A DNA stretch of 64,000 bases, from IMG/VR virus record IMGVR_UViG_3300021087_000002; one strand, given 5' to 3'. The notes beneath the pieces were generated by a model. The model searched no databases. It saw only the letters and a list, made by a program, of their open reading frames with translations, and was not told the DNA's origin. The translations under genes were made by a program, and so were the position numbers. Source of the DNA: an uncultured virus (IMG/VR IMGVR_UViG_3300021087_000002) (taxonomy: Duplodnaviria > Heunggongvirae > Uroviricota > Caudoviricetes). Below, piece after piece: positions 29,362 to 45,036 of the stretch. Every line of letters begins with the position of its first letter. Positions within the stretch are counted from its first letter, which is position 1.

Positions 29362-31062
29362 ATGGTTGTAAAACTAAGTGATCATCTAAATATTAGTCTA
29401 GGTTTACAGGCACTTGTTGACTCTGCGGCTGTTACTGCCATTATCAGAGACACTAACATTGCCATGGACTCAGGCACTATGGGTGACTTTGTAGGAACCA
29501 TTGGTGGTAAGGGAACTGATGCAGGTATCACAGTTCTAAACTCTGGAACCAATGATGCTGATGTCTTACTAAGACTAGACTCGGCATATGCGGCTACATT
29601 AAGTGGAACACAAACTCTTACTAACAAAACTATTAACCTATCAAACAATACACTGACTGGTACTATTGGTCAGTGGAACGCCGCTCTTAGTGGTGGTAAT
29701 TCCTTTGCATCCTTGACAGGTACAGAAACATTTACTAACAAAACACTTACATCACCAAGTATCACTGGTATCGGTGCAATTGGTGGATCTATTACAGATA
29801 TTAGTACATTCTCTCTTAGAGATACTACTGTTGCTTCATATGAACTACTATTTGCCGCTAACAGTTCTGTAAATGCAAGTGCTGATAGAACACTAACCTT
29901 TGATGTTGGTAATGCCAATAGAACATTAAGTGCATTGGGCAACCTATCATTTGGTGGCTCGTTTACGACATCAGGTGCACACACAACGACACTTACTACA
30001 AGCGGAACAACTGCACTTACTTTACCGACATCTGGTACGCTTATCTCGAAAGATGATAGTAGTGACATTTCTGGCATTAGAAACATCACTGTAACAGGTA
30101 CTGTTGACGGTAGAGACGTATCCTCAGATGGGTCAAAGCTTGATAATATTGAAGCAAATGCTGATGTTACTGATGCAGGTAATGTTGGATCTGCTTTAAC
30201 ATCATTTGCAACAGGTACAGATGCTGATGGTGCAGACCTTATACCAGTATACGATGCCTCAGCAGGTACATGGGAAAAGCACACTATTACTAATGCCGCT
30301 TTAGCAGGCGATAAGGGACAAAAAGGCCAAGCTGGTACAATTGGTTCTGATGGAGACGCAGGTGCTAAAGGTCAAAAGGGCGAAGTTGGTGCCAAAGGTC
30401 AAAAAGGTGAAAAAGGCCAAAAAGGTGAAGTTGGAGCCGCAGGTGCTAAAGGTCAAAAAGGTGAGATTGGTGCAACTGGTAATAATGGGACAAACGGTGC
30501 TAAAGGCCAAAAGGGTCAAAAGGGTCAAAAAGGTGAGATTGGTGAATCTGGTTCTGGTGCCGCTGGTATCAAAGGTCAAAAAGGTGAAGTTGGAGCCACA
30601 GGTGGAACTGGTTCGGCTGGTACTAAAGGCGATACAGGTCCTCAAGGTCAAAAGGGAGAAGGCAACGAAGCCATTACAAGCACCACAGCACCAGGTAGTG
30701 CGGTAGACGGTGACCTGTGGTGGGATGATGAGACAGGATCCTTATATATTTACTATAACGATGGGACTTCTAGTCAATGGGTACAATTTAATAATTCGGT
30801 TGTTTCTGACGGTGCTATTTCCACGGCTAAACTTGCTTCTAACGCAGTCACTGCGGCTAAAATGGCTGATAACTCTGTTGACTCTCAACACTATGTTGAT
30901 GGTTCTATAGATGCCATTCATTTAGCATCTAATTCTGTAACCCAAGTTAAGCTTGCCGATGATGCTGTCGGATCAAATGAATTGAAATCTGTCGTATCCT
31001 TTGTGGTGTACAACTCAGCAGGTACCGCACTCAAAACTATATACGGCGCAGGAGGCGCATAA
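29362..31062 (+). CDS. Collagen-like tail fibre protein
   Basis: TQTLTNKT repeats, about 39 Gly-X-Y triplets, GDLWWD module, C-term shared with 5287..6705. Confidence 0.8.
   Translation: MVVKLSDHLNISLGLQALVDSAAVTAIIRDTNIAMDSGTMGDFVGTIGGKGTDAGITVLNSGTNDADVLLRLDSAYAATLSGTQTLTNKTINLSNNTLTGTIGQWNAALSGGNSFASLTGTETFTNKTLTSPSITGIGAIGGSITDISTFSLRDTTVASYELLFAANSSVNASADRTLTFDVGNANRTLSALGNLSFGGSFTTSGAHTTTLTTSGTTALTLPTSGTLISKDDSSDISGIRNITVTGTVDGRDVSSDGSKLDNIEANADVTDAGNVGSALTSFATGTDADGADLIPVYDASAGTWEKHTITNAALAGDKGQKGQAGTIGSDGDAGAKGQKGEVGAKGQKGEKGQKGEVGAAGAKGQKGEIGATGNNGTNGAKGQKGQKGQKGEIGESGSGAAGIKGQKGEVGATGGTGSAGTKGDTGPQGQKGEGNEAITSTTAPGSAVDGDLWWDDETGSLYIYYNDGTSSQWVQFNNSVVSDGAISTAKLASNAVTAAKMADNSVDSQHYVDGSIDAIHLASNSVTQVKLADDAVGSNELKSVVSFVVYNSAGTALKTIYGAGGA
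30307..30663 (+). repeat. Collagen Gly-X-Y repeat (Lys-rich)
   Basis: GQK/GAK/GEV/GEI triplets; one interruption; only one Pro. Confidence 0.9.
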
Positions 31063-31064: not shown

Positions 31065-32132
31065 ATGGCGGCAATTAATTTCCCATCATCGCCAGCAAAT
31101 GGCGCAACCCACACCGCTAACAACGTCACATGGACATTTGAAAGTGCAAAAGGTGTGTGGAGAGCTACTACCTTTGCGGATGCTCCTCAAGGCGTAAAAG
31201 GTCAAAAAGGTGAGAAGGGTCAAAAGGGTCAAAAAGGCGAAGTAGGTCAAAAAGGTCAAAAGGGACAGACTGGTAATACTGGTAATACTGGTTCAACTGG
31301 TGCCAAAGGACAAAAAGGTGAGATTGGTAATACTGGTAATACTGGTAGCACAGGTAATACTGGTAGCACTGGTTCAACTGGTGCCAAAGGACAAAAAGGT
31401 CAAAAAGGACAAACTGGTAGCACTGGTGCCAAAGGTCAAAAGGGTGAGATTGGTGCAACTGGTAGTACTGGTAGCACTGGATCGACAGGTAGCACAGGAT
31501 CTAAGGGACAAAAGGGTGAGATAGGTGCCTTTGGAGGCGGATCTCTTGATATCACTAACGGTGGTCTTTTCTCTAATGCCTCATCTAACTGGACAGGTGA
31601 TCCAGGTACAAAAGGTAAAATCCAATATCACTCAAATAGATGGTACATTGTTGCAGACCAATCTTCAAACAGAATTGTTCAGTTTAGAAGAAATGGCTCC
31701 GATGTATCGTATGTTGATAACTCAGGTACCTACCAAGGTACGGCTACGTCTGCAAACTGGTCGGATTTGGCGGAGAAATATTTAGCTGATAGAGGATATG
31801 AGCATGGAGATCTTTTGGCTATTGGTGGCGATAATGAGGTAACTCTATACCAAAAAGGTATGGCTATTGCAGGTGTTATCTCTACACTTCCAGGCGTTAG
31901 AATGAATGTTAACGAAGATAATAAAGAAGATCCTTTATGGCCTTTCATTGCTCTTAAGGGACGTATCCCATGTAAGGTTAACGGAACTGTTAAAAAGGGT
32001 GACTATATAGTAGCAGATAATGACGGTAAATGTAAAGCAGTTCCAATTGAACGTGCTTCTGAAATACACTTCTTATATTATGTTGGTGTAGCATTAGAAG
32101 ATGGTGAAGGGGTAGTCGAGGTTAAAGTTTAA
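31065..32132 (+). CDS. Collagen-like fibre protein with C-terminal intramolecular chaperone (Peptidase_G2-like) domain
   Basis: 38 Gly-X-Y triplets; C-term SDLAEKY...GVIST...ALKGRIPCKV...KKGDYIV. Confidence 0.8.
   Translation: MAAINFPSSPANGATHTANNVTWTFESAKGVWRATTFADAPQGVKGQKGEKGQKGQKGEVGQKGQKGQTGNTGNTGSTGAKGQKGEIGNTGNTGSTGNTGSTGSTGAKGQKGQKGQTGSTGAKGQKGEIGATGSTGSTGSTGSTGSKGQKGEIGAFGGGSLDITNGGLFSNASSNWTGDPGTKGKIQYHSNRWYIVADQSSNRIVQFRRNGSDVSYVDNSGTYQGTATSANWSDLAEKYLADRGYEHGDLLAIGGDNEVTLYQKGMAIAGVISTLPGVRMNVNEDNKEDPLWPFIALKGRIPCKVNGTVKKGDYIVADNDGKCKAVPIERASEIHFLYYVGVALEDGEGVVEVKV
31191..31532 (+). repeat. Collagen Gly-X-Y repeat (Lys/Thr at Y, no Pro)
   Basis: GQK, GNT and GST triplets. Confidence 0.9.
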
Positions 32133-32518
32133 TGCCAACCTATGCACAAAATAATAGTAGTTTGCAAAGTCAAGCTGGAGCACAGTTAAGGACTTTTGAT
32201 AAAACGATGACGTTTACTGTCACTGCATATGTGTTGCAAACAGTGTCACAAACTCAAGCGGGACCTACAAGCTCAAGTGGCTTTAATCAACGCTTTGAGT
32301 ACACAGGAGCGGCTAACTCGCTATACAATAACTATTTAGATTCTGGGATATACACAGGGAATCGTATGTACAGTCAAGATGTTATTGACTCTATTAATAG
32401 TGTTATGCAAAGAACAGTAGATCAGATTGAATCTCGTATCACTAACAGATCCATTTCAGCTTTACTATGTCATAGCTCTTGTCATACTAGTTGTCACACA
32501 TCAAGAGGTCGTAGATAA
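32132..32518 (+). CDS. Putative radical-SAM target/precursor protein 1 (C-terminal CHxS x3 + RGRR)
   Basis: 128 aa ending LCHSSCHTSCHTSRGRR; TAATG-coupled to the fibre gene. Confidence 0.65.
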   Translation: MPTYAQNNSSLQSQAGAQLRTFDKTMTFTVTAYVLQTVSQTQAGPTSSSGFNQRFEYTGAANSLYNNYLDSGIYTGNRMYSQDVIDSINSVMQRTVDQIESRITNRSISALLCHSSCHTSCHTSRGRR

Positions 32519-32904
32519 TGGGTAATTTAACCAGAGATAGTATAGATAGTTACATGCAAACTTATGCAGGTGGTAAGTTAAGAACGTTTGACAAAACTAT
32601 TACTATAACAACTACAGCATATCAGAATAACAATCCCACTGCTATGGGTGGAACAGGTAGTAATACTACGACACATAGGTTTGAATATACAGGAGCGGCT
32701 AACTCTCTATTTGATAACTATATTGATGGTGGCATATCCGCAGGCTCAAGAGCATATTCGCAAGACATCGTTGACACATTAGAGGACGGAGTAAGAAGAA
32801 CCGTAGACCTCATTGAAGGTAGAATTACTAATAGATCTATCTCCGCAGTATTATGCCACTCAAGCTGTCACACCAGCTGTCATACATCAAGAGGAAGACG
32901 TTAA
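32518..32904 (+). CDS. Putative radical-SAM target/precursor protein 2 (paralogue)
   Basis: 128 aa, identical C-terminal tail; TAATG-coupled. Confidence 0.65.
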   Translation: MGNLTRDSIDSYMQTYAGGKLRTFDKTITITTTAYQNNNPTAMGGTGSNTTTHRFEYTGAANSLFDNYIDGGISAGSRAYSQDIVDTLEDGVRRTVDLIEGRITNRSISAVLCHSSCHTSCHTSRGRR

Positions 32905-32905
32905 A

Positions 32906-34084
32906 ATGACAATGCAACAATCATATTGTAAGCAGATGAGATACTCAGGACCTGAAAGTCTGGCACCATCTGATGCAACAAAGTTCGATGTTCTTATTCA
33001 GATGGAAGTTCTCTCTGGGTGTGAACAGGGTTGCCTTGGCTGTTTTGTTGATAAAGCAATTGATCCAGAAGTCAATCAAGCAATTATTGATCGTGCTAAG
33101 GAACTTGCTGATGGCGTTAAACGTGTAGGTGGCAACCTAAGAGAGTTTGTTATCGGTCCTACAGACCTATTCTCTGCTAAAAATACAAAAGATATCTTGA
33201 CAAATCCAACAGTTCAAGCTATAATGAGAGAACACACTAATGCACGTATTGCCTCTCCTGCTAAGTTTGACAATGCGTCAATGGAAAAGGTCAGAGAGAT
33301 CTTTGCTATTCTAGACGATCTAGATGCATATAGACGTGAAATGGTTATCGAATTCATTATGCCGATTGGTCGTATTAACGAGATGTTGGATGATGACGAT
33401 TACTATAATAGAGTTATGGAGAAGATAGAGTTCTTTAAGAACGAAACTCCAAAGATGATGGACTGGTCTTGGACTTTACAAGCTTCTAATGTTGTTGGTA
33501 AACAGATCGACAAAGAGAAATACAATAGACTGATTGATCGTTCTGTAAATGATTTTGGAACCATCATGGAGATGAACCCAGCATTTGCAAGAGCACCTAA
33601 TCAGATTATCCAACGTAATAACTTGTTTGCTTGGAATAGGTTCCTAGAATCAGTTATTGATGAAGATAACCGTAAAGAGGCCGTTATGTCAATGGCTAAC
33701 CTTTATTGTAACTCAATCAACTTTGTGGGTATCACTATCGTACCAGGAGAGAACGGACCTACTACGCATTTGAATGTTATGTTGCATGAACAGGCATTTT
33801 TCTTATCTAATAAGAACCTAGATGTAACAGGATTATCTTTTGAGGAAATCTTACAACGTAAGAACGAATTGATTACAAAAGGTATAAATAGGTCTAGTAA
33901 GGTAAAGGACTGCTCAGATTGTAAGTTTGCTGTCGCATGTGCTAACAGATTAGTATTCGAAGCACAAGAAAGCTTAAACATAGATGGATGTGTATTACCA
34001 AAAGAAACATTGAAGTATTATAATCCATTCGACTTTACTTGGAATGATGATGCAACTCAATATAAAATGAAAGACGGAGCGTAA
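32906..34084 (+). CDS. Divergent radical SAM enzyme (GPTD clade) 1
   Basis: CEQGCLGC, IGPTD, C-term CSDCx5C...C; start set at MTMQQ. Confidence 0.75.
   Translation: MTMQQSYCKQMRYSGPESLAPSDATKFDVLIQMEVLSGCEQGCLGCFVDKAIDPEVNQAIIDRAKELADGVKRVGGNLREFVIGPTDLFSAKNTKDILTNPTVQAIMREHTNARIASPAKFDNASMEKVREIFAILDDLDAYRREMVIEFIMPIGRINEMLDDDDYYNRVMEKIEFFKNETPKMMDWSWTLQASNVVGKQIDKEKYNRLIDRSVNDFGTIMEMNPAFARAPNQIIQRNNLFAWNRFLESVIDEDNRKEAVMSMANLYCNSINFVGITIVPGENGPTTHLNVMLHEQAFFLSNKNLDVTGLSFEEILQRKNELITKGINRSSKVKDCSDCKFAVACANRLVFEAQESLNIDGCVLPKETLKYYNPFDFTWNDDATQYKMKDGA
33883..33890 (+). promoter_or_regulatory. Possible internal late promoter
   Basis: TATAAATA about 200 nt upstream of 34087. Confidence 0.4.
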
Positions 34085-34086: not shown

Positions 34087-35190
34087 ATGATAGGTCAAAA
34101 TCTATACTACTTAAACAATAGTAAGTATATCTCAACTCTTGAAAACTTAGACACTGTAGTTGGTGAGTTAAACTCGTATTATCACACGTCAACCCCACGT
34201 AACATCGTTCTCGTGCATCCATCAAATGGTGCACAGTTGTTGGCGGCTCAGTATGAATCTATTGCTAATACTGTTAGAAATAATGCTAACGATCTAATAT
34301 CTTATATGACTTTCGATGAAGTTGATGATGTTGATTTCATTCAGAATAGTGATAAACGTATTGTTCTATTTTCTACTTGTGAAGATATGATTAAAGTGTT
34401 TGCAAGATATACATCTGGACTTATTACTGCATCTGGCTTCTATGATTCAAGTACTAACGTTACAAGTATGGTTGGACAATTCCTTGAGAAGATTTTCTCT
34501 ATGGATGCTATGCTTACTATGGTTCTTGCTGACGAGACTATTAATGACGTATCAAATCATGTAGACACACTATTCTCCACAGACTCAGGTGGTGGCGGAG
34601 TAACTCCTTATACAGTGATCTATCAGAATGGTAAGAACTTTAGTTATGATCTTTTATTTTGGTTAAACGATTACCACAGAACTAATGCAGTACAGCTACT
34701 TATTAAAGAAAAGTTTACAGTACATCAGTCTACAATGGCTCAAGATGTGATGGAACACTTTACATCAAGGCGGCACTACTTGGCATATATCCTTTCAGTA
34801 ATTGATTGGATGAATGCCAATACAGCACGTAATGCAGAATATGCCACAAATAAGACAGAGTGGGTTAGGGACTGTTATATTACTAAAGCAAATGCAGGTA
34901 ACTATACTGCCGCATTCTATAAACTAGAAGAGCTATGGAACCTAGTCAAAGCAGATACTGCATTCATTGCCGCACACCAAGATAAAGCAGACAGTGATGC
35001 AGACGGTTGGGAATATATGGATCTCTATACAGAGTTTAAGAATGTATTTCCTATTGTACGAAAAGTATTACAAAACGATTTTGATATGGATAATCTGACT
35101 GCCGATCTTAAACTGATCAATACGGATGTTCAGTTCTTCTCTAAGAGACAAAACCGTATCCCATATCTTATCCATAAGTATCCACTATAA
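34087..35190 (+). CDS. Hypothetical protein in rSAM cluster
   Basis: 367 aa, no recognised motif. Confidence 0.6.
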   Translation: MIGQNLYYLNNSKYISTLENLDTVVGELNSYYHTSTPRNIVLVHPSNGAQLLAAQYESIANTVRNNANDLISYMTFDEVDDVDFIQNSDKRIVLFSTCEDMIKVFARYTSGLITASGFYDSSTNVTSMVGQFLEKIFSMDAMLTMVLADETINDVSNHVDTLFSTDSGGGGVTPYTVIYQNGKNFSYDLLFWLNDYHRTNAVQLLIKEKFTVHQSTMAQDVMEHFTSRRHYLAYILSVIDWMNANTARNAEYATNKTEWVRDCYITKANAGNYTAAFYKLEELWNLVKADTAFIAAHQDKADSDADGWEYMDLYTEFKNVFPIVRKVLQNDFDMDNLTADLKLINTDVQFFSKRQNRIPYLIHKYPL

Positions 35191-35203
35191 GGAACATTAT
35201 ATT

Positions 35204-35962
35204 ATGACAATTCCAGACGAAAGTACGTGCTATGAGTTACCTCTATCTCCACAGCACCTAGTACAGATATACAAAGATAAGAATGAACTTGAAGAGTATG
35301 TCCTTTGGGTTGACTATGCTAAAAGCAAAGAGAAACTATCAGCCCAACATATTATCATTTATTTGGCTAATACCAACTTTAAGACAACATTCTCTTCTAT
35401 TGATGAGGATCTGATTAAGGCTTACATCAATTCGGACTTTATGGTAGATTGTCCGTTACTAGCTAGAATTGTTGTTCTTATTATTAAGTTTTATTATAAG
35501 CACGATATTAGTGAACAAGAAAGTCAGTTGCTATACATATTCCCACCAAAGTTAATCTTTAAGTTTATTGAAGAGAATTCAGCATTGGTCGAGAGCCTCA
35601 TAGATACAGTTGCATCTTCTGTTCCCTTTGCATTATCAAAACTTTATGATGGTCTCACAGATGATCAAAAAGAATTAGAAGTTAATCTTAAACAATTACT
35701 TGATGATACCAAAGTAGTGGATAAGCCAGCTATGTGCGGTCCTAATATTGCTAGGCTTCTTACAACTGGCTATGATGCACTTCTACTAATTGTAAGTAAG
35801 AGGGGGCTATCTACAGAATACAATAAACAAATATATAACGATTCACCAAAATACTTCGGTAGAGATCTATACAACGTTATGTGCGAAGCTAAAATAACGG
35901 ATCAAATAGTATCATTCTTCCCCGAAGATTTTATGTTGTTTGTCAATGATAACGAAGCTTAA
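35204..35962 (+). CDS. Hypothetical protein in rSAM cluster
   Basis: About 252 aa; start set at MTIPD after the AAGGA RBS. Confidence 0.6.
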   Translation: MTIPDESTCYELPLSPQHLVQIYKDKNELEEYVLWVDYAKSKEKLSAQHIIIYLANTNFKTTFSSIDEDLIKAYINSDFMVDCPLLARIVVLIIKFYYKHDISEQESQLLYIFPPKLIFKFIEENSALVESLIDTVASSVPFALSKLYDGLTDDQKELEVNLKQLLDDTKVVDKPAMCGPNIARLLTTGYDALLLIVSKRGLSTEYNKQIYNDSPKYFGRDLYNVMCEAKITDQIVSFFPEDFMLFVNDNEA

Positions 35963-36971
35963 TGCAACAGAAGCAGGGTATTACAGCTATATTGATGGTA
36001 TAAGTCCTACCAATGTAGAATTCCTACGCACAGAGATTAACCTAGATATTCTTCATGGTTGTGATCAGATGTGCCCCGGATGCTTCATTCCTAGAAAAAA
36101 CCTAACATCACCAGACCATATGACAAAGCTTTATGATCTTTTGTGTAAGGGTCAGATGTATCCAGATGAAATTACTATAGGTCCAACAGATATATTTGAT
36201 GCACAAAACTTCGATGAAGTTATGCAACATCCATCTATGACAGATCTATACAGCATATCTGGTGTTGGGTTTACATCTACATTACTACAAGATCCTTCTA
36301 TTGTCAAGCCTAAACTTGATATGATTTGGCAGATCTATAGAAACATTAATCGTATTCCAGATATTGATTTTAAGATTGTATTGGATGTAGAGGCGTATCT
36401 TGATGATGATCTTGATCCTAACTTCCTAGAGAACATTAAACTATTCAGTATAGGATCTGTTCAGTTTAGAGTTAATTACACAGAAGATCTATTTGATAAG
36501 ATATCTTATAACGAACTATGTTCTAGGGTTAAAGAAGACTTCAACGCACCAGTAGTTATCACACCTTCATTCTTGACAGACAGAAACGCACGTGGTAAGG
36601 TTAATAAGTTTCTTGATATGTTTAGGGAAGACCTACGTAAACAAGATATTGATCCAGAATGGCGTAATCTTTACACATTCTTTGATGCTAAGTTTAATGG
36701 ATATGGTTGCCAGAACTACAGCTTTTATAATGGGAAACTATATGTTAACCCATTCCTATATGATGCAATCATACAAAGAACTCCTGAGTTTGAGACGGAT
36801 ATAGACCAAGAGTGGTTGCCACAAAACCTAGAGTATGCGAATACAGTTGAAGATTGTTCTGACTGCGAATACATGCTCAGTTGTGCAGAAAGAAACGTAC
36901 ACATGTATATGAAGTCAAGGAAACTAGACCAATGTGTCGCCTTGAAAGAGTATATGTATGCCACTAATTAA
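35946..36971 (+). CDS. Divergent radical SAM enzyme (GPTD clade) 2
   Basis: CDQMCPGC, IGPTD, CSDCx5C...C. Confidence 0.8.
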   Translation: MITKLNATEAGYYSYIDGISPTNVEFLRTEINLDILHGCDQMCPGCFIPRKNLTSPDHMTKLYDLLCKGQMYPDEITIGPTDIFDAQNFDEVMQHPSMTDLYSISGVGFTSTLLQDPSIVKPKLDMIWQIYRNINRIPDIDFKIVLDVEAYLDDDLDPNFLENIKLFSIGSVQFRVNYTEDLFDKISYNELCSRVKEDFNAPVVITPSFLTDRNARGKVNKFLDMFREDLRKQDIDPEWRNLYTFFDAKFNGYGCQNYSFYNGKLYVNPFLYDAIIQRTPEFETDIDQEWLPQNLEYANTVEDCSDCEYMLSCAERNVHMYMKSRKLDQCVALKEYMYATN

Positions 36972-38121
36972 AAACAACCTATACTACGAACTCACCACGG
37001 AAACTCAGACCAAGCCAGTATCGGCAGTAAAGATACAGCTTGATGTTTTAGATGGTTGTCATCACAAATGCCCAGGTTGCTTTGTGCATCGTAGAGGTAA
37101 TGCTAGTGACGAGCATCAGTTAGATAAAGCCAAAAACTTCATACGAGACATAACAGACAAAGGTATTCTGGTTGACGAAATCCTAATAGGTCCGACAGAT
37201 TTCCTTGCATCAGAGAACTTCTATGAGGTCATGCCTTCTTTGATTGATATCATCAACGAGAACTCTCCTATCCTTGCATTCGTGTCTACGTTGATAGATG
37301 GGGATCTTCCTAGGTGGATTGCTTTCATAACAAATAATATCAACACAGACACAGAGATTGAAATTGGGATTGCAACAAACCCACACAAGTTCTTTGATAA
37401 AGAGTATGTCGATCATATTCATAAGATGTTACAATATATCGATGAGAACCTTGAGCACGAGGTAACATATACCTTTGTTGTAAACATACGTGATTATGGG
37501 CTAGATTACGTTAAACTGCATAAAAGCGCAGTAGAACGCTTTAATACGATATTAGACTTTATACCGTCTGTTTCACGATCACACAAACCAAAGCTAATAC
37601 TTGACACATTAGACAAGTTTAACGACTTCTTTGATGAGCTAAGTGCTTATAAAGAAACAAAATTAAATAACATAATGGTAGACCACTCACATGGTGGGAT
37701 GAATTATACTGTGTTAAACTACAAAAAGGGCGAATGGTTCATTTCACCGTTTATGTACGAAAACATGGCATTGTACCATGAAATGTTTAAAGTAGATACA
37801 TTTGATGAAGTACTGCCTATTTTAGAAAGTCAACTTGAGAGAGTAAAGAATACAGAGTGTGAGACTTGTCCATTGCTGATGTCTTGTTACAATAGAAAGA
37901 TTATCTTACTTAGAGATTACCTTGGGGTTAATAGATGTATTGCACCCAAGAAGAATATGCTTGCACATATACATAACTATAACGCACCTGCTCAAACCAT
38001 GTACAAATGGGACGGATATACTGTAGAAGGTGATAAGAATGGTTATCGTAAAAGGTTCCTTGTGACTGAAGACGGTGACAAAGAGCTAGACAGAATAAAG
38101 GCTATATCTTATGTTAAATAG
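36958..38121 (+). CDS. Divergent radical SAM enzyme (GPTD clade) 3
   Basis: CHHKCPGC, IGPTD, CETCx5C...C. Confidence 0.8.
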   Translation: MPLIKNNLYYELTTETQTKPVSAVKIQLDVLDGCHHKCPGCFVHRRGNASDEHQLDKAKNFIRDITDKGILVDEILIGPTDFLASENFYEVMPSLIDIINENSPILAFVSTLIDGDLPRWIAFITNNINTDTEIEIGIATNPHKFFDKEYVDHIHKMLQYIDENLEHEVTYTFVVNIRDYGLDYVKLHKSAVERFNTILDFIPSVSRSHKPKLILDTLDKFNDFFDELSAYKETKLNNIMVDHSHGGMNYTVLNYKKGEWFISPFMYENMALYHEMFKVDTFDEVLPILESQLERVKNTECETCPLLMSCYNRKIILLRDYLGVNRCIAPKKNMLAHIHNYNAPAQTMYKWDGYTVEGDKNGYRKRFLVTEDGDKELDRIKAISYVK

Positions 38122-39250
38122 TAGTTGGGAAGATATCGTCAAACATGGTGGCGTGGGGGAAGAGTTTACTTCTGTATCATCTATGGGACAATATAAGATA
38201 CAAGTAACACTAGAACTACTTGAGGGCTGTTCTTACATGTGTCCGGGATGTTTTGTTAAGAGACGTGGAAACTGGCACCCTAAGTCTATACAACTATTTT
38301 ATGATCTAGCATATGCATTAAAAGATAATTCCGATATAGTTCTTGATGATATTGTAATCGGACCTACAGACTTCTACGGAGCAGAAAACTTAGATGAGAT
38401 TATAAAGAACCATAGGCTTGCTAGTGCTATATTAATGATGCCAGAAGACAGTAGAAATATTCAACACAACTGTTCTATTATGGGATCTTTGAGCGAAGAT
38501 GATATTCTAGGTAAGATTAAGTCTATAGAAAAGTCTCCTCTTGGACAGGTTGTTAAGTCATGGGATGTGCAGATAGCACTAGATCTTAACAGAGTACTAG
38601 ATGATCCAGTTTATAGAAATGCGTTGGACACCAGAGTTAACCACTTTAAAGACAGTACACTGGACTTTGAGATATCAATGGCAACCAATATTGTTGATGG
38701 TATAGAGGATAGATTGTACGAGGCTATCGATTACATACGAGAGACCTACAATACAGTCATTGAGATCTTACCATCCGTTGTTCGATCTTTTAACAATACA
38801 ACTAAGCATGGTGATAAACTGTTTGCTTGGAATGATATGCTTACCAATCTATCTACTGATGTTAATCGTTTTAAGAACAAGTTTCATTTCCTACAAGGAG
38901 ATCTATCTCACAAAGCATTTCATTATGCAGTAGTAAACATACATCATGGAAAACTATATGCTTCACCATTCATCTATGAGAATGCTCAAATTTACAAACC
39001 AGATTTTGAGATTGTACAAGATAGACCTATACTAGATGCTATCTTAGATTATAAACATAAAGTTGTATCGGAGCAATTAAAGAATAGTTTTGATAAAGAA
39101 TGTGGTACGTGCAAGTACCTTAATGTATGCTCCAATAGATTAATACCAAAGGTTATGGATACGATGTTTAAAGGACGTTCAGAGTGTATCTTAAATAAAG
39201 AAGTTATTGCCCTATTTGACAACGAGGAATATCATGGGAATAGTTACTAA
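38111..39250 (+). CDS. Divergent radical SAM enzyme (GPTD clade) 4
   Basis: CSYMCPGC, IGPTD, CGTCx5C...C. Confidence 0.8.
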   Translation: MLNSSWEDIVKHGGVGEEFTSVSSMGQYKIQVTLELLEGCSYMCPGCFVKRRGNWHPKSIQLFYDLAYALKDNSDIVLDDIVIGPTDFYGAENLDEIIKNHRLASAILMMPEDSRNIQHNCSIMGSLSEDDILGKIKSIEKSPLGQVVKSWDVQIALDLNRVLDDPVYRNALDTRVNHFKDSTLDFEISMATNIVDGIEDRLYEAIDYIRETYNTVIEILPSVVRSFNNTTKHGDKLFAWNDMLTNLSTDVNRFKNKFHFLQGDLSHKAFHYAVVNIHHGKLYASPFIYENAQIYKPDFEIVQDRPILDAILDYKHKVVSEQLKNSFDKECGTCKYLNVCSNRLIPKVMDTMFKGRSECILNKEVIALFDNEEYHGNSY

Positions 39251-40256
39251 TAACAAAAGTGAAGCACAGGCAGACAAAGACTTTGACTTGTCATTTAACG
39301 ATGGACACGAAATCAAAGTAATCTTTAATGCCGAAGTGTTGTCAGGTTGTGAGTTTAAATGTGTTGGTTGTTTTGTGAACAAACTAGGAACAAACATAGG
39401 TAGCTTTGATAGACTAAACAATGCTATTGACTTGTTCAATGATAATGGTTATAGATCATCTACGATCAACATAGGTCCCACAGACATATTTGGTAATAAC
39501 AATGTGATGGATCTATTACAGGATCCAGACTTCAGAGATGCGTTAAGTAAAGTCACTACTATCCAGTTTGTTACCACACTTGAGAACATTGACTTAGACG
39601 TAATCAATGAGTTGAATAGCATTCCTAAGACAAAAGGATTTATGTATGATGCGAACATAGCAATAGATCCTAAGAAGTTTCCTAACGGATATGAGGAGAT
39701 GATTGATAAGTTAAATCTATTTGATGACGATCTTAATTACTACATTGTCCTTAATATGGGAAATGATGATGACCTTAATGAAAGGGTTCTTGAGTTATCT
39801 GATATAGCAGATAAACAGTTCGATACAATCTTAACACTCAATCCATCATTTTTAAGAACTGAGAAGAGCAAGGTACATAAACATCTAATCAACAAGTGGA
39901 AGAAGCTAGATGATTGGGCAGAAGACAACTTTCCTTCTACTATCATCGATCAGGCACAAGGTGGATCTTTAGAACTCAACTACACATATTGTAATGGTAA
40001 CTTCTTTTGGACACCATTTGTATATGATATCGTCAAGATAGGTACAGATCAGTTTAAGGTTAAGGATGAAGAGAACATAGACTCTTGGCTAAAGGCTAAG
40101 AATGACAGTTTCCTAACCCAGATGATGTACACATCCAAGACAGATAGTTGTGACGGATGTGCCAAGATGATGACTTGTATCGATAAAGGTGTACAGTCCT
40201 ACATGGAACACCATTCTATTACTGAGTGTTTGTTTCCATATAATCAAAACCAGTGA
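39234..40256 (+). CDS. Divergent radical SAM enzyme (GPTD clade) 5
   Basis: CEFKCVGC, IGPTD, CDGCx5C...C; start set at MGIVT. Confidence 0.8.
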   Translation: MGIVTNNKSEAQADKDFDLSFNDGHEIKVIFNAEVLSGCEFKCVGCFVNKLGTNIGSFDRLNNAIDLFNDNGYRSSTINIGPTDIFGNNNVMDLLQDPDFRDALSKVTTIQFVTTLENIDLDVINELNSIPKTKGFMYDANIAIDPKKFPNGYEEMIDKLNLFDDDLNYYIVLNMGNDDDLNERVLELSDIADKQFDTILTLNPSFLRTEKSKVHKHLINKWKKLDDWAEDNFPSTIIDQAQGGSLELNYTYCNGNFFWTPFVYDIVKIGTDQFKVKDEENIDSWLKAKNDSFLTQMMYTSKTDSCDGCAKMMTCIDKGVQSYMEHHSITECLFPYNQNQ

Positions 40257-41301
40257 TTAAGTTCTGACCAGTCTTATCCATGTAGTTAAACCACATACGC
40301 ATAATACAATCAGGTAGATCTCTTTCACGATTCTTCCAGTCCCATTGTGTGTAGCACCTAAATCCACATTTATTCCACCACTTACACGATAGACAGCCAT
40401 TCTCATCCATATATGCTTGCATCATCCCAGCATTATCTTTGCGCTCATACTTTGTGTTGAAGTCACGTTGATCATATCTATCCCATCTACAGTTTGATGT
40501 AGAGTTATCAGGAAAGATTGTAACCTTGTTAAGAGCCAAGCAATGCATATGATTGCTCTCTTGGTATATAAGATCTTTAATAGGATTAATGTCAGGGTAG
40601 TTATGATATACAAACTTTAAGAACTCAAGGTATTCGCTATCCGATGGTATCATATAATCATACCCACGATCAGGTATGTAATCATCAAAGTAGAAGTTAT
40701 CAAACTTCTCATACAGATAATGAAAGTATTCATCATCATCTGCCATAAACTTCTTAATAGAAATAGTGGTAGCAACCATGTTAATAGATGTAATATAGTC
40801 GGCAAAGTGCTCTATGTTCTTACCATAAGGTCCTTTTACAGGTCTTCCATCGAAGTCATAAGAGCATATAATATAAGATGGTATATCTACTGCGTTTAGA
40901 TCATCAAGTAACTTTTGCACTCTATCTCTTTTACTAAACTGAAATGAAGTAACCCAAACTACTTTAATCTCCGCACCATGTGTATCAAATATCTTCTTGA
41001 TCTCTACAAGGAAATCGTAGTATACAGGATAAGCCCATTCTGATATTCGATCTTGAAACAATTCTCCACCAACCATGTTGATCTGGATAACGTCTACTCG
41101 GCCTTTCATTTTGATGACATGTTGTTCAACCAAGTCTAGTTTGGAGAAGATCTCTTCACGAGACAAGCCTACTGTAGACTTCTTATCATGGTGACAAAAA
41201 GAACAGTTAAGGTGACAGTTCTCAAATAGTGTCAACTCAATCTCGGCTATGTCTGGACGCTTATCTTCCAGTAGTTGCTTGGTGAAGTCAAAGTTGTCCA
41301 A
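40219..41301 (-). CDS. Radical SAM/SPASM enzyme
   Basis: CHLNCSFC, VGGEL, C...C...CLSCKWWNKCGFRC...C. Confidence 0.85.
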   Translation of the reverse strand: MDNFDFTKQLLEDKRPDIAEIELTLFENCHLNCSFCHHDKKSTVGLSREEIFSKLDLVEQHVIKMKGRVDVIQINMVGGELFQDRISEWAYPVYYDFLVEIKKIFDTHGAEIKVVWVTSFQFSKRDRVQKLLDDLNAVDIPSYIICSYDFDGRPVKGPYGKNIEHFADYITSINMVATTISIKKFMADDDEYFHYLYEKFDNFYFDDYIPDRGYDYMIPSDSEYLEFLKFVYHNYPDINPIKDLIYQESNHMHCLALNKVTIFPDNSTSNCRWDRYDQRDFNTKYERKDNAGMMQAYMDENGCLSCKWWNKCGFRCYTQWDWKNRERDLPDCIMRMWFNYMDKTGQNLITGFDYMETNTQ

Positions 41302-41689
41302 TCAACATTTCCTCTTTATAATATTGATATATGTCTGGAACCATACCTAGCTCCATATCAAAGTCTAGTTGACCTAAGATATCATCGTATATCTCTTTGC
41401 TTTTGAAATAAGGAAGGAAGTGTGGATCATTACCAAATAGCAGATCCTTATCATTTAAAACATCATAGAAATGTTCATTAAAGTCTTGACTAATCCATGT
41501 GGCATAACATATTGCGACAACGTATGATTTAGCAGGATAAATCCACTCATCTACATATTCTCTAAAATGCATGAGAGCAAAGTCAGCTATATTGTTAGGT
41601 TCCCACCTGATATCAACCTCATTCAGATCATCTTTGAAGAGGGACTGCGTCATGTGATACGCCTGTTGTCGTGCTTTCCATTCCTGCAT
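41288..41689 (-). CDS. Hypothetical protein in rSAM cluster
   Basis: 133 aa, aromatic/acidic; WIYPAKSYVVAICYA. Confidence 0.6.
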   Translation of the reverse strand: MQEWKARQQAYHMTQSLFKDDLNEVDIRWEPNNIADFALMHFREYVDEWIYPAKSYVVAICYATWISQDFNEHFYDVLNDKDLLFGNDPHFLPYFKSKEIYDDILGQLDFDMELGMVPDIYQYYKEEMLIGQL

Positions 41690-42578
41690 AGTAGTCTAGT
41701 AATCCTTTATATCCATTACATCCATTATCTAAGTCCAGAACATACCTGTAGTGTTCGGTGAGACAATTGCCAAAATAGGTACAGCCGTGACATATAGGAC
41801 TAAGATTATCTCGTGCCTCATTTTTTGCCCACTGCTTATACTCATGATAGCTTTGATATTCTTTAAAATACTCTTTATCATTATTATCAAACTCCAATAC
41901 CCCAAACTTACCAGATGGTGTAATATACACATGATCGTTTGAGAATGCGTTATACTCTTTATCTATACTCCTGTAGATGTTATGAATATTCTGAAAGTCA
42001 AAATTCTTAGGTGTAGTAGCTTCATCAAATCTAATAACAAACTCTTCGAAGTCTTTATGGGTAACGTCAAATGAATTTGCTTGGTTAATAGAGTATGGTT
42101 TGATTTCCACAGACTTTACATTAGACACCATATTAAGGGTGAAGATCATAAACTCCACATCCATTTCTAATACTTTTGGTGACGCAAGAATAAGAACAGC
42201 CAGATCTTTATTGGCATTCATCATATTATTTAGGACAAATTGTTCCTTCTCTCTTGCATGAAAGTCGTATGATACAGACAATGTAACGTCATCATCACGA
42301 AAGAAGTCAGGGAATGCTGATAGGTTTGTATTGATATGGATGTTTCCATCATAGTATCTTCGTATTACATTTTTGATAGAATAGTAATACTCAGGTGTTA
42401 GTAATCCTATCTCACCACCATATAGATCCACATGAGTTATAGGATCTGTTATTTGACCCATAGAATGTTGTAACCACATTGGTGTTATTTTGTGTCTATC
42501 ATTTAACTGTTGCTTTGTCAAGTAACAAAAGTCACAAGAGAAGTTGCAATAGTAAGTTGGATTAATTGATAGATTCAT
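41628..42578 (-). CDS. Radical SAM enzyme with partial SPASM
   Basis: CNFSCDFC, YGGEI, NTNL, CHGCx5C...C. Confidence 0.85.
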   Translation of the reverse strand: MNLSINPTYYCNFSCDFCYLTKQQLNDRHKITPMWLQHSMGQITDPITHVDLYGGEIGLLTPEYYYSIKNVIRRYYDGNIHINTNLSAFPDFFRDDDVTLSVSYDFHAREKEQFVLNNMMNANKDLAVLILASPKVLEMDVEFMIFTLNMVSNVKSVEIKPYSINQANSFDVTHKDFEEFVIRFDEATTPKNFDFQNIHNIYRSIDKEYNAFSNDHVYITPSGKFGVLEFDNNDKEYFKEYQSYHEYKQWAKNEARDNLSPICHGCTYFGNCLTEHYRYVLDLDNGCNGYKGLLDYYAGMESTTTGVSHDAVPLQR

Positions 42579-43599
42579 CGACATAAGCTGTCACTCCATC
42601 AGGGTTCATTCCATTGATCTCAAGTATACGAGGTGCTAATGTTTTCATCTGTCTACAATGAGATTCTACTGTACCCTCTCTCTTCATATCTCGTACAGTC
42701 TTCTTACAGCCATTACATATCTCAAACATAGGACACGTGTAGCAAGCCATCTTCATTGTTTGTATATTAGGATCATCTTGAAGTGGTGTTTGCATCTTTC
42801 CATTCATTTCTGTTTCAAAATCAATAGGATAATCCATATCATCACCAAACGAACCACAAGAGTAATAATCACCACCTGGGTTCATAGCTCTAATTCCTGT
42901 ATCACACAATCTATTCTGTGGACAAGATGTCGCAGATCCACCAAGTCGTTTCATCATTTGCTTGGTATTGTATTCGTACTCAGCCAAACCCATATCGTAA
43001 ATCTTAATATATGTTTCATAGATTTTAGACAATTGATATGTAGTGCCTTGCACACCAGATGCCATAGCATAATTTAACTTACACTCTACACCCATCTCTT
43101 TTGCTAACTCAACATTCTTGATAGCAAGGTGTTCATTCTCATCAGTTATAACAGCAATGAAGTCAGGACGTTCTCCTGTGTGTTTAAGCATAGCGTTAGA
43201 TACCATCCAAAAGTCTTTCTCAGTAAACTCCGAATAGTCTCCCTTTAATCTACCACCACCATATTGAAACGATGTAGCACAACCAAATCTTCTGTTCTGA
43301 AATATAGGTAACCATTTCTCTGGTCTCATTAAGAAAGGCCAAAGGTTAGATGTGAATGATATAGATGCAGGGTAGTCATGTTCGTCTAAGTGATCTATTA
43401 ATTCTTGATACCACTCAGGCTTGACCATAAGAGGATCTCCACCGTTAACAATAATAGTGTTACAATCAGGATATCTCTTTAGAAACTTATAGACGTAATC
43501 TAGATCCAACAATCCAACTTCATTAGGATCAATGTCAGTAGAAGAACAGAAAGTACACTTGAAGTTACAAGCTTCTGTTGGTTTAATAATTAGATCCAT
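42562..43599 (-). CDS. Radical SAM/SPASM enzyme
   Basis: IIKPTEACNFKCTFC, NGGDPL, CPQNRLC...YSC...CYTCPMFEICNGC...C. Confidence 0.9.
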   Translation of the reverse strand: MDLIIKPTEACNFKCTFCSSTDIDPNEVGLLDLDYVYKFLKRYPDCNTIIVNGGDPLMVKPEWYQELIDHLDEHDYPASISFTSNLWPFLMRPEKWLPIFQNRRFGCATSFQYGGGRLKGDYSEFTEKDFWMVSNAMLKHTGERPDFIAVITDENEHLAIKNVELAKEMGVECKLNYAMASGVQGTTYQLSKIYETYIKIYDMGLAEYEYNTKQMMKRLGGSATSCPQNRLCDTGIRAMNPGGDYYSCGSFGDDMDYPIDFETEMNGKMQTPLQDDPNIQTMKMACYTCPMFEICNGCKKTVRDMKREGTVESHCRQMKTLAPRILEINGMNPDGVTAYVDESIN

Positions 43600-44621: not shown

Positions 44622-45036
44622 AGCTTAGTGTTAGAGCCTTCTCTGAGTTCAATGCAATGTGGGGTGTTTCTGCAGGAATAAAGATCTTAGATCCCTTCTC
44701 TATCATAACATACCTATCATCAATTTCCATTATCTTACATCCGTCAAGACATTCGATGTATATATCTATAGGATCTGTATGTACAGGAAAGGAAGGTGCG
44801 TCAACAGGCGCATAAAATATATGAATAGTCCCATCATAGGGTTGAATACGTTCATAGTTCTCTACCTTAATGGTATCATCACCACTAAACCAAAGATCTA
44901 CAACTTTACCTTGATATGCAAATATATTGTCATGTTCAATGTATTGCTGTTCCCCCTTATTGTTGATAAAGGAAACAGCACACTTATTAAAACATTCTTC
45001 GCTCATTAAGAAGTCAAAGAATTCTTCAAATGTCAT
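44572..45036 (-). CDS. JmjC/cupin-like oxygenase
   Basis: SFPVHTDPIDIYI...GCK...IFIPAETPH (HxD...H). Confidence 0.65.
   Translation of the reverse strand: MTFEEFFDFLMSEECFNKCAVSFINNKGEQQYIEHDNIFAYQGKVVDLWFSGDDTIKVENYERIQPYDGTIHIFYAPVDAPSFPVHTDPIDIYIECLDGCKIMEIDDRYVMIEKGSKIFIPAETPHIALNSEKALTLSYGVNDTETLSYLRKDY

What the first reader, a model, noticed from the sequence alone, without database searches (positions are those of the whole stretch)
32468..32904. CHSSCHTSCHTSRGRR tail is conserved as protein but recoded in DNA
Seen in sequence: copy 1 reads tgt cat agc tct tgt cat act agt tgt cac aca tca; copy 2 reads tgc cac tca agc tgt cac acc agc tgt cat aca tca. Many synonymous changes, including Ser AGC/TCN switches, but no amino-acid change, while the N-termini diverge. 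Inference: strong purifying selection on the motif. It can be read as CxxxCxxxC (thioether or Fe-S ligands), HxS x3 (His-to-Ser cyclophane) or overlapping CxxxCH (atypical haem/metal site). RGRR could be a cleavage or recognition signal.
Basis: partly seen in the sequence, partly recalled or inferred. Interest (0 to 1): 0.75.

Follow-up and report, generated by a model that had tools for sequence, protein, structure and literature searches.

The report
Invariant Cys-His tail of phage protein
Two small neighbouring phage proteins end in a 16-residue Cys-His-x-Ser tail that is kept unchanged across many phages and always sits beside radical-SAM enzymes, so it is probably a virus-particle protein that the phage modifies chemically in a way not yet described.

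Summary
ORFs 32132-32518 and 32518-32904 (128 aa each, 77/126 identical) both end in CHSSCHTSCHTSRGRR. 11 of 16 tail codons differ synonymously, including two Ser AGY/TCN and two Arg CGN/AGR switches.

The tail (CHxS)3-RGRR-stop is essentially invariant:
- 119 of 120 HMMER-found homologues have it.
- On a tree of 55 distinct genes the fixed positions show 169 synonymous against 1 nonsynonymous change; the body shows 948 against 1063.

The genes lie directly behind collagen-like tail fibres of a marine T4-like myophage. They belong to a cassette conserved in T4-like, phiKZ-like and Rak2-like phages and in Bdellovibrio-like bacteria. It has four radical-SAM enzymes (two with clear SPASM signatures; R6-R9), a cupin, a 2OG oxygenase and two unknown proteins.

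A relative, Atu_ph07 gp170, was detected in a phage preparation (PMC6102473, Table S5).

Best reading: the tail is the substrate of these enzymes on a fibre-associated virion protein. The chemistry is untested; it could be thioether, His-Ser cyclophane or formylglycine. No curated family fits.

Earlier notes of this scan describe the same cassette on other DNA. My paper searches found only unexplained mentions of phage radical-SAM genes.

The parts
32132..32518 (+). T1: 128-aa protein ending in CHSSCHTSCHTSRGRR; its start overlaps the stop of the upstream fibre gene by 1 nt
   Evidence: 124 homologues. phrog_35144 at E 8e-9. No Pfam or NCBIfam family. AF2 pLDDT 82.5, with no solved-structure match.
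32468..32515 (+). Tail of T1: (CHxS)3 RGRR, 16 codons, followed directly by the stop
32518..32904 (+). T2: 128-aa paralogue (77/126 identical to T1) with the same tail; its start overlaps the T1 stop by 1 nt
   Evidence: 42 of 47 T4-like related loci carry two such genes in tandem.
32854..32901 (+). Tail of T2, synonymously recoded relative to the tail of T1
29362..31062 (+). Collagen-repeat tail-fibre-like protein (566 aa)
   Evidence: Pfam Collagen E 3e-16 and PHROG tail-fibre families
31065..32132 (+). Collagen-repeat tail-fibre-like protein (355 aa) directly upstream of T1; its C-terminus is weakly like a self-cleaving chaperone domain
   Evidence: Pfam Collagen E 1.4e-18. Peptidase_G2 IMC domain E 1.7e-4, 21.5 bits, below the cut-off of 25.
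32906..34084 (+). R1: first of five paralogous radical-SAM-like proteins (CxxxCxxC plus C-terminal CxxCx5C...C)
   Evidence: phrog_31457. R1-R5 are 20-28% identical to each other.
34087..35190 (+). U1: 367-aa protein of unknown family, conserved in the T4-like cassettes only
   Evidence: 46 loci; its HMM finds no homologue in the distant phage or Bdellovibrio-like cassettes; its only two hits outside those 46 loci are L084 and L085, T4-like phage-type contigs
35201..35962 (+). U2: 253-aa core cassette protein; its homologue directly follows the tailed gene in distant cassettes
   Evidence: HMM hits at E 4e-13 to 1e-4 in distant phage and Bdellovibrio-like loci. AF2 pLDDT 92.5, pTM 0.89. Best structural match Z 4.9, not meaningful.
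35940..36971 (+). R2: radical-SAM-like paralogue
36958..38121 (+). R3: radical-SAM-like paralogue
   Evidence: Pfam Radical_SAM 25 bits, below the cut-off of 29.5
38111..39250 (+). R4: radical-SAM-like paralogue
39207..40256 (+). R5: radical-SAM-like paralogue
40219..41301 (-). R6: core radical-SAM enzyme with a Cys-rich C-terminal region (orthologues RSL2 ORF072, Atu_ph07 AUZ94950)
   Evidence: blastp 37% and 30% identity. Found in 69 of 80 related loci. Cys pattern; no SPASM model was scored for it.
41288..41689 (-). s133: 133-aa core cassette protein of unknown function (phrog_20737)
   Evidence: 50 loci. The atlas search gave nothing usable.
41628..42584 (-). R7: core radical-SAM enzyme with a twitch-like C-terminus (orthologues RSL2 ORF077, Atu_ph07 AUZ94946)
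   Evidence: 42-53% identity
42562..43599 (-). R8: core radical-SAM/SPASM enzyme and the best-conserved one (55-60% identical to RSL2 ORF075 and Atu_ph07 AUZ94947)
   Evidence: (DynA 44.7 bits, anSME 41.6 bits, both far below their cut-offs)
43590..44621 (-). R9: core radical-SAM/SPASM enzyme; its orthologue lies immediately upstream of the tailed gene in 27 of 33 distant cassettes
   Evidence: (PapB 41.1 bits, DarE 39.7; SPASM TIGR04085 30.3 against cut-off 27)
44572..45036 (-). Cupin / JmjC-like small oxygenase, a core cassette member
   Evidence: Pfam JmjC_2 23.2 bits against cut-off 22. Orthologues RSL2 ORF066 and Atu_ph07 AUZ94954.
45308..45868 (+). 2OG-Fe(II) oxygenase, a cassette member
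   Evidence: Pfam 2OG-FeII_Oxy_5 E 4e-14. Weakly similar to RSL2 ORF076. Found in 16 loci.

Best explanation
T1 and T2 are small folded proteins of the fibre/host-recognition module of a marine T4-like myophage. Their invariant C-terminal tail, (Cys-His-x-Ser)x3-Arg-Gly-Arg-Arg-COOH, is the target of a dedicated phage-encoded enzyme set. The set has four core radical-SAM enzymes (R6-R9; SPASM signatures scored for R8 and R9), a JmjC-like cupin and a 2OG oxygenase. Two unknown partners (U2, s133) and, in this lineage, five extra radical-SAM paralogues (R1-R5) come with it.

Inferred mechanism: late in infection the enzymes act on the tail before or during assembly and install covalent changes on the Cys, His and Ser side chains. 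The most likely changes are intramolecular crosslinks per CHxS unit, such as Cys thioethers or a His-C2 to Ser-C-beta bond. Cys/Ser oxidation or hydroxylation may be added. The modified protein stays whole and is built into the particle near the fibres.

What is shown:
- the motif, its invariance and its recoding;
- the conserved gene neighbourhood;
- the enzyme superfamily;
- a relative detected in one phage preparation.

What is inferred:
- that the tail is the substrate;
- which bonds are made;
- where the protein sits in the particle.
For: 1) Selection.
- The 13 fixed tail positions show 169 synonymous against 1 nonsynonymous change on a tree of 55 distinct genes. The three x positions show 29 against 34, and the body 948 against 1063.
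- The Ser and Gly positions, which my selection pattern did not constrain, show 61 against 1.
- 119 of 120 homologues found by whole-protein HMMER carry three CHxS units plus RGRR at the very end.
- 130 of the best 150 cluster representatives end canonically.

2) Neighbourhood.
- All 80 viral loci hold 1-8 CxxxCxxC genes near the tailed gene.
- Orthologues of R6, R7, R8, R9, the cupin, s133 and U2 recur in T4-like marine phages, in phiKZ-like Ralstonia phage RSL2, in Rak2-like Agrobacterium phage Atu_ph07 and in Bdellovibrio-like MAGs.
- The R9 orthologue directly precedes the tailed gene in 27 of 33 distant loci, and the U2 homologue directly follows it.

3) Enzymes.
- All nine R proteins have CxxxCxxC plus C-terminal Cys motifs.
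- R9 and R8 align over their full length to peptide- or protein-modifying radical-SAM/SPASM maturases (PapB, DarE, DynA, anSME, QhpD), at E 1e-10 to 1e-5.

4) Particle.
- Atu_ph07 AUZ94952 (296 aa, 31.89 kDa, tail CHSSCHASCHNSRSRR) matches gp170 of Table S5 in PMC6102473: 8 unique peptides, 35% coverage.
- It was most abundant in gel band 1, together with proteins of about 90-140 kDa.
- The flanking radical-SAM genes gp168 and gp171 are not in that list.

5) Position. T1 is translationally coupled to a collagen-like fibre gene. In a Bdellovibrio-like contig the cassette lies near Peptidase_S74 fibre-chaperone proteins.

6) Precedent. Radical-SAM enzymes modify HxS repeats of the protein HxsA (PMC13128918, abstract and section 9). 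They also make His-C2 to X3-C-beta crosslinks on His-x-x motifs (PMC11499958, passages).
Against: - No modification has been observed. Every link between the enzymes and the tail rests on gene neighbourhood.
- No cassette enzyme reaches the curated cut-off of any named maturase family. PapB scores 41 against 340, anSME 42 against 349, HxsC 22 against 268 and YhhB 25 against 445.
- The cassette has more enzymes (6 to 11) than a 16-residue tail obviously needs, so some may act on other residues or other proteins, such as the fibres.
- In this window the core enzymes lie 7-12 kb from T1/T2 on the opposite strand.
- The Atu_ph07 preparation was only PEG-purified, and its list of 131 proteins includes non-structural ones (ribonucleotide reductase, RecA-like). 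Detection is therefore not proof of a structural role.
- The loading buffer as described in the methods names no reductant, so running in the top band may only reflect disulfides.
- In the AF2 model the tail has low confidence (pLDDT 50-60).
Confidence: 0.55

Rival explanations
1. The tail is an unmodified metal-binding or redox motif. In an oligomeric, perhaps trimeric, fibre-associated protein the Cys-His pairs would bind Zn or Fe, or form disulfides. This would lock the assembly much as His-x-His metal sites do in other phage fibres and spikes. The radical-SAM enzymes would then act on something else, such as the fibres or sugars.
For: Three invariant Cys-His pairs are classic metal ligands. 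The protein sits behind collagen-like, presumably trimeric, fibres. Atu_ph07 gp170 (31.9 kDa) peaks in the top gel band, and the buffer as listed has no reductant. The cassette has more enzymes than the tail needs. The His-x-His metal sites of T4 gp37 and gp12 and of P2-type spikes are recalled, not from any call.
Against: Metal binding does not explain the equally invariant Ser (61 synonymous against 1 nonsynonymous change at the Ser/Gly sites), the terminal RGRR, or the strict position at the C-terminus. It also does not explain why the R9 and U2 genes flank the tailed gene in unrelated phage lineages and in bacteria.
Confidence: 0.2
2. It is a true RiPP. The 110-residue body is a long leader, and the 16-residue tail (or part of it) is cut off after modification and released as a small bioactive or metal-binding peptide. 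RGRR would serve as a recognition or processing site.
For: The layout is that of a RiPP cluster: a precursor with a repeat core at the C-terminus next to radical-SAM/SPASM enzymes. Long conserved leaders exist in other RiPP classes (recalled).
Against: No protease or exporter family was detected among the cassette proteins. The body is a conserved, confidently folded domain (pLDDT 90 or more for 63 residues). It grows to 190-320 aa or more in other phages. The Atu_ph07 relative was found with 35% coverage in a phage preparation.
Confidence: 0.1
3. The tailed protein is an accessory of the enzymes rather than their substrate. For example, it could be an Fe-S or electron carrier, or a scaffold that serves the many radical-SAM proteins, which in turn modify fibres or nucleotide sugars.
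For: Radical-SAM enzymes need a reductant, and the phage carries at least 11 radical-SAM-like genes. Cys and His could hold a cluster.
Against: Three Cys and three His in a flexible terminal tail are not a known cluster-binding fold. The protein is detected in a phage preparation while the enzymes are not. The tail ends in four basic or small residues that a cluster site would not need.
Confidence: 0.05

Closest known systems
HXS anti-phage system (HxsA effector matured by radical-SAM enzymes HxsB and HxsC with HxsD; Li et al. 2026, PMC13128918; NCBIfam TIGR03976-03979)
   Same: In both, a whole protein, not a small peptide, carries tandem His-x-Ser units and is encoded beside several radical-SAM enzymes and a small partner protein. 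The modification maps to an S-H-x-S-S unit, and His and Ser are essential.
   Different: - Here each HxS is preceded by an invariant Cys.
- There are exactly three units at the extreme C-terminus, followed by RGRR.
- T1 and T2 had no NCBIfam hit at E up to 0.01.
- The enzymes score 15-22 bits against HxsC, whose cut-off is 268.
- There is no peptidoglycan-binding domain.
- The system is phage-encoded, sits in a fibre module, and has four core enzymes plus oxygenases.
Triceptide (three-residue cyclophane) synthases: HtkB, HaaB, YhhB, XyeB, FxsB
   Same: The substrates carry repeated aromatic-x-x motifs. His is a proven first residue (HTK, HAA, HNR), with a His-C2 to X3-C-beta bond made by a radical-SAM/SPASM enzyme (PMC11499958). 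H-x-S fits that pattern three times.
   Different: Similarity to these enzymes is weak and mostly N-terminal: YhhB 24.6 bits against 445, XyeB 18.8 against 450, FxsB 19.4 against 370, AmcB 32.9 against 425. The invariant Cys is not part of triceptide motifs. The substrate here is a virion-associated protein.
Thioether-forming radical-SAM/SPASM maturases (PapB ranthipeptide maturase; CXXX-repeat target family TIGR04115; QhpD)
   Same: The best full-length match of R9 is PapB (residues 11-319 on model positions 5-319 of 330, E 1.2e-10). QhpD and the CXXX-repeat family also align over their full length. The tail is a Cys-x-x-x repeat. From recall: PapB acts on repeated Cys-x3-Asp, and QhpD crosslinks a protein subunit that stays in its complex.
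   Different: Scores are far below the cut-offs (41 against 340, 25 against 453, 21 against 350). There is no Asp or Glu acceptor. His and Ser are invariant instead.
Anaerobic sulfatase-maturating enzyme (anSME; TIGR03942)
   Same: It is a radical-SAM/SPASM enzyme that modifies a folded protein, turning one Cys or Ser into C-alpha-formylglycine (PMC5682303 passages). R8 and R9 align to it over their full length (41.6 and 33.3 bits). The last unit plus the next residue, C-H-x-S-R, has the Cys...Ser-Arg spacing of the sulfatase target motif. That motif is recalled, not taken from a call.
   Different: The scores are far below the cut-off of 349. No sulfatase is encoded. Three repeats are conserved, not one site.

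Membership tests
Radical SAM superfamily | CxxxCxxC cluster motif near the N-terminus | tested here: met
   All nine proteins R1-R9 have one. Pfam Radical_SAM reaches its cut-off only for R8 (33.3 against 29.5); R3 and R7 fall below it.
SPASM/twitch subgroup of radical SAM enzymes | C-terminal Cys-rich domain for auxiliary Fe-S clusters | tested here: met
   R9 scores 30.3 bits on TIGR04085 (cut-off 27) and 22.6 on Pfam SPASM (cut-off 21.5). R8 and R9 have 7-8 C-terminal Cys. R1-R5 and R7 have CxxCx5C plus one further Cys.
HXS system (HxsA/B/C/D) | HxsB and HxsC equivalog radical-SAM enzymes | tested here: not met
   HxsC TIGR03977 scores 22.0 bits (R8) and 14.8 bits (R7) against a cut-off of 267.9. 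HxsB was not listed for any protein.
HXS system (HxsA/B/C/D) | HxsA-type repeat protein | tested here: not met
   T1 and T2 had no NCBIfam hit at E up to 0.01. The only HxsA4 hit in the window is a low-complexity match in the collagen-like fibre, 30.1 bits against 55. The sequence does show three HxS units.
Triceptide systems | Aromatic-x-x motif in the precursor | tested here: met
   H-x-S occurs three times in both tails. His is an accepted first residue per PMC11499958.
Triceptide systems | Enzyme belongs to a curated cyclophane-synthase family | tested here: not met
   YhhB 24.6 against 445, XyeB 18.8 against 450, FxsB 19.4 against 370, AmcB 32.9 against 425, GrrM 17.3 against 310.
Triceptide systems | Aromatic carbon to C-beta crosslink (loss of 2 Da per motif) | not testable with these tools
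   This needs mass spectrometry or NMR of the modified protein.
Ranthipeptide / CXXX-repeat thioether systems | Enzyme reaches the PapB or TIGR04115 cut-off | tested here: not met
   PapB 41.1 against 340 and TIGR04115 21.1 against 350, although both alignments are full-length.
anSME | Enzyme reaches the TIGR03942 cut-off; a sulfatase substrate is present | tested here: not met
   41.6 bits (R8) and 33.3 bits (R9) against 349.45. No sulfatase family was found among the window proteins scanned.
RiPP (released peptide product) | Leader peptidase and/or exporter in the cluster; core peptide released | tested here: inconclusive
   No protease or transporter family was detected in the cassette proteins, but U1, U2 and s133 have no assignable fold. 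The Atu_ph07 relative was detected as a protein with 35% coverage.

The most novel reading that the evidence does not exclude
Phages of several unrelated lineages, and predatory Bdellovibrio-like bacteria, use a radical-SAM enzyme set to rebuild the (CHxS)3RGRR end of a small fibre-associated protein. The product would be a covalently crosslinked and possibly aldehyde- or metal-bearing knob that stays on the particle and is needed for fibre assembly or for gripping the prey cell. This would be the first radical-SAM-installed modification of a virion protein, and a new class of protein crosslink built on Cys-His-x-Ser units.
Probability: 0.3. Interest if true: 0.9.

Novelty: new variant of a known kind. 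Interest (0 to 1): 0.75.

Why it matters
Radical-SAM maturation is known for small secreted peptides and a few cellular proteins. If this reading is right, large phages spend up to 12 kb of genome on such chemistry for a particle protein next to their host-recognition fibres, and predatory bacteria use the same kit.

The tail is short, invariant and found in cultured phages (Atu_ph07, RSL2 group). The chemistry is therefore directly testable by co-expression and mass spectrometry.

It could reveal a new protein crosslink, explain the unexplained 'radical SAM cassettes' noted in pelagimyophage host-recognition clusters (PMC7029224), and add a new layer to how phage fibres are built or stabilised.

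Tried and rejected
- **Phage-collection searches.** blastn and tblastn of the two genes against the GenBank phage collection found no match. Relatives in cultured phages were found only by starting from longer family members.
- **Fold searches for T1.** Foldseek against PDB and BFVD gave no hit at E up to 0.001. VIA-align against 48,161 chains gave a best Z of 5.5, not meaningful.
- **Fold searches for U2.** The model is confident (pLDDT 92.5), but the best Foldseek E-value was 0.35 and the best VIA Z 4.9. Its function stays unknown.
- **Complex prediction.** Complex prediction of R9 with T1, three 4Fe-4S clusters and SAM returned 'no answer' (ipSAE 0.00 and 0.00; controls not run). I draw nothing from it.
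- **Protein atlas.** Searches for s133 and T1 gave no usable lead.
- **Ralstonia phage RP31 ORF070.** This 125-aa gene sits beside another radical-SAM cluster. I checked it as a possible relative because an RP12 protein appeared in the BFVD list. It has no CHxS tail and is not this family.
- **Late promoter.** There is no TATAAATA directly upstream of T1; the nearest on the + strand is at 26258. Co-transcription with the fibre genes is inferred from gene overlap only.
- **Own assembly.** The window's own assembly is not held. The nearest record, G001, carries the same two tails.
- **Literature.** Searches found no paper that describes the tail or assigns a function to the cassette. They found only unexplained mentions of radical-SAM genes in pelagimyophages and in RSL2-, RP12- and S13-type jumbo phages. 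The RSL2/RSF1 genome paper (Bhunchoth et al. 2016) was not in the library, so its virion proteome could not be checked.
Full report
**Observation.** The window holds two tandem ORFs on the + strand, 32132-32518 (T1) and 32518-32904 (T2), each of 128 codons. Each start overlaps the previous stop by one base.
- Both end in CHSSCHTSCHTSRGRR followed directly by TAA.
11 of 16 differ, and 17 of 48 bases differ, with no amino-acid change. Two Ser codons switch between AGY and TCN, and two Arg codons switch between CGT and AGA.
- Overall the proteins share 77 of 126 aligned residues.
- The degenerate DNA pattern for three Cys-His units four codons apart occurs exactly twice in the window. The expectation is 0.01, and 0 of 100 shuffles reached 2.

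**Conservation of the tail.** A whole-protein search returned 124 homologues from metagenomes, of which 120 were listed.
- 119 of the 120 end in three C-H-x-S units plus RGRR. One has two units, one has S-H in the second unit, and one has C-H-A-A.
- A profile search of 1.84 billion cluster representatives gave 164 hits at E up to 0.001. Of the best 150, 130 end in (CHx[S/N/A])3 R[G/S]RR, 9 carry near variants (RNRR, RARR, two units, CHDK, CHNC), and 11 are fragments or lack the tail. Lengths run from 58 to 1621 aa, median about 190. This profile contains the tail, so the count is partly circular.
- Homology extends beyond the tail. T1 aligns to Ralstonia phage RSL2 ORF068 over residues 33-128 and to Agrobacterium phage Atu_ph07 AUZ94952 over residues 51-128. 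Conserved body motifs are visible in the alignment: LRTFDK, RFEY and the RTVDLIEGR helix.

**Selection at the DNA level.** I took family genes from the related loci and the window, giving 79 genes of which 55 were distinct.
- In 22 distinct within-genome paralogue pairs, synonymous difference in the tail is 152 of 206 sites, against 934.5 of 1390 in the body.
- A parsimony count on a tree of the 55 genes gives 169 synonymous and 1 nonsynonymous change at the 13 fixed tail positions. The three x positions give 29 and 34, and the body 948 and 1063.
- My selection pattern required the Cys, His and Arg, so the clean test is the Ser and Gly positions: 61 synonymous against 1 nonsynonymous.
- In 84 distinct tail DNAs, both Ser codon classes are used at each Ser position.
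- The tail is therefore held by selection on the protein. In three pairs (L011, L013, L014) the tail DNA is nearly identical while the body is diverged, which points to occasional local gene conversion.

**Context in the window.** The window is part of a marine T4-like myophage.
- It carries portal, sheath, gp15-like, neck and large terminase genes at 48-57 kb, and a VrlC-like DUF4815 giant protein at 29-5068.
- Its 982-aa structural protein is 45% identical to that of cyanophage S-CAM1.
- T1 follows two collagen-repeat fibre-like genes. The second has a weak, sub-threshold match to a self-cleaving chaperone domain.
- Downstream on the + strand lie R1, U1, U2 and R2-R5. On the - strand lie R6, s133, R7, R8, R9 and a cupin, followed by a 2OG oxygenase on the + strand.
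- All nine R proteins have CxxxCxxC and C-terminal Cys motifs.

**The conserved cassette.** A scan of viral contigs returned 80 loci (126 confirmed of 373 candidates).
- Every locus has a tailed ORF and 1-8 CxxxCxxC genes.
- 42 of the 47 T4-like loci carry two tailed genes in tandem.
- Best-hit assignment shows a core set present across lineages: cupin, R9, T, U2, R6, R8, R7, s133 and 2OG.
- In the 33 more distant loci, which include contigs of 218-490 kb, the R9 orthologue directly precedes the tailed gene in 27 and lies one ORF away in 3.
- A U2 profile finds the ORF that directly follows the tailed gene in these loci.
- R8 is 55-60% identical, and R9 41-42% identical, to the proteins of RSL2 and Atu_ph07.
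- R1-R5 are lineage-specific paralogues, weakly similar to RSL2 ORF071, which lacks the cluster motif.

**Cellular carriers.** In the genome collection the cassette occurs in six Bdellovibrio-like MAG contigs (L086-L091), one of them 299 kb long.
- The flanks scanned (L088, L091) are cellular: FabH-like, acyl-AMP ligase and ABC transporter genes.
- One of these contigs (L091) carries Peptidase_S74 fibre-chaperone proteins nearby, one of them with a pilin-type N-terminal motif.
- Two contigs binned as Rhodobacteraceae look like T4-like phage DNA.
- A 4-kb contig of a Dysosmobacter isolate carries a tailed ORF with R6 and R8.

**Particle association.** Atu_ph07 AUZ94952 is 296 aa and 31.89 kDa. 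AUZ94958 is 66.07 kDa and AUZ94959 is 21.66 kDa.
- These masses and the gene order match gp170, gp176 and gp177 of Supplementary Table S5 of Attai et al. 2018 (PMC6102473; supplement parts 2 and 3 read).
- gp170 was found with 8 unique peptides and 35% coverage in bands 1-9. It was most abundant in band 1, where proteins of about 90-140 kDa run.
- The flanking radical-SAM genes are not listed.
- Caveats: the preparation was PEG-purified, the list contains non-structural proteins, and the loading buffer as described names no reductant.

**Enzyme relationships.**
- R9 aligns over its full length to PapB (E 1.2e-10), DarE, DynA, anSME, QhpD and the CXXX-repeat maturase family.
- R8 aligns over its full length to DynA and anSME.
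- All scores are far below the curated cut-offs. HxsC scores only 15-22 bits.
- The enzymes therefore belong to the peptide- and protein-modifying radical-SAM/SPASM radiation but to no named family.
- The cupin reaches the Pfam JmjC_2 cut-off (23.2 against 22). As recalled, that family includes protein Arg and His hydroxylases.

**Structure.**
- AF2 of T1 with 81 sequences gives pLDDT 82.5: a helix, a beta hairpin, a long helix, and a low-confidence tail. No solved or viral predicted structure matches it.
- U2 folds with high confidence but also has no match.

**Interpretation.** The most economical reading is that the tail is the substrate of the cassette and that the product is a fibre-associated particle protein.
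- The chemistry is open.
- The invariant Cys and the thioether-forming relatives of R9 favour thioether links.
- H-x-S fits the His-type three-residue cyclophane and the modified unit of HxsA.
- C-H-x-S-R recalls the formylglycine target of anSME (for the reaction; the motif itself is recalled).
- Rivals are an unmodified metal or disulfide motif, a released RiPP, and an enzyme accessory.

**Earlier notes.** Earlier notes of this scan describe the same cassette on other genomes. I re-tested their leads myself: virion detection, predatory bacteria, and HXS as the nearest system.

Noticed in passing
window 45872-47806 (+), with 29362-32132: A 644-aa protein combines GT25, a PLOD-type glycosyltransferase domain and a 2OG-oxygenase-like end (Pfam GT_PLOD E 9e-44). 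It lies about 14 kb downstream of two fibre-like proteins full of G-x-K collagen repeats. This suggests collagen-style Lys hydroxylation and glycosylation of the phage fibres.
   Followed up: no
window 8130-20299: A block of mostly minus-strand genes looks like a sugar or nucleoside modification island inside the structural region. It has two GT8 glycosyltransferases, a carbamoyltransferase, a DegT aminotransferase, two QueC-like proteins, a nitroreductase-like protein and a radical-SAM-like gene (13170-14006). A clear radical-SAM/SPASM gene on the + strand (19358-20299; Radical_SAM 56 bits, SPASM 38 bits) follows.
   Followed up: partly
L011, L013, L014 (tandem tailed genes): In these three related phages the tail DNA of the two paralogues is nearly identical (pS 0-0.12) while the gene bodies are diverged (pS 0.42-0.71). 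This is a sign of local gene conversion confined to the tail.
   Followed up: partly
window 35201-35962 (U2): The AF2 model is very confident (pLDDT 92.5, pTM 0.89), yet no solved structure resembles it (best Z 4.9). Its homologue always follows the tailed gene in distant cassettes.
   Followed up: yes
L091:17582-18625 and 19240-19983; L088: In Bdellovibrio-like MAG contigs the cassette has cellular flanks (L088, L091). In L091 proteins with the Peptidase_S74 fibre-chaperone domain lie nearby, one also carrying a type IV pilin N-methylation motif.
   Followed up: partly
L082:5173-5550 (Ralstonia phage RP31 ORF070): A 125-aa protein rich in His, Tyr and Trp (it ends ...SHTHYSPDGSY) lies upstream of a different cluster that PMC5468394 annotates as radical SAM, Fe-S oxidoreductase and MoaA-like. 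It may be another phage substrate-and-enzyme pair and is unrelated to the CHxS family.
   Followed up: partly
window, 13 sites: TATAAATA, the T4-type late-promoter box, occurs 13 times against 6.7 expected. 12 of the 13 are on the + strand, and several lie just upstream of structural genes (5130, 19324, 47807, 52729, 55085). None lies in front of the minus-strand core enzyme genes.
   Followed up: no
PMC6102473 Table S5 (Atu_ph07 gp170 = L083:7001-7891): The 31.9-kDa tailed protein is most abundant in the top gel band, alongside proteins of about 90-140 kDa. The loading buffer as described lists no reductant. It therefore runs as an SDS- and heat-stable, high-mass species of unknown linkage.
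   Followed up: partly
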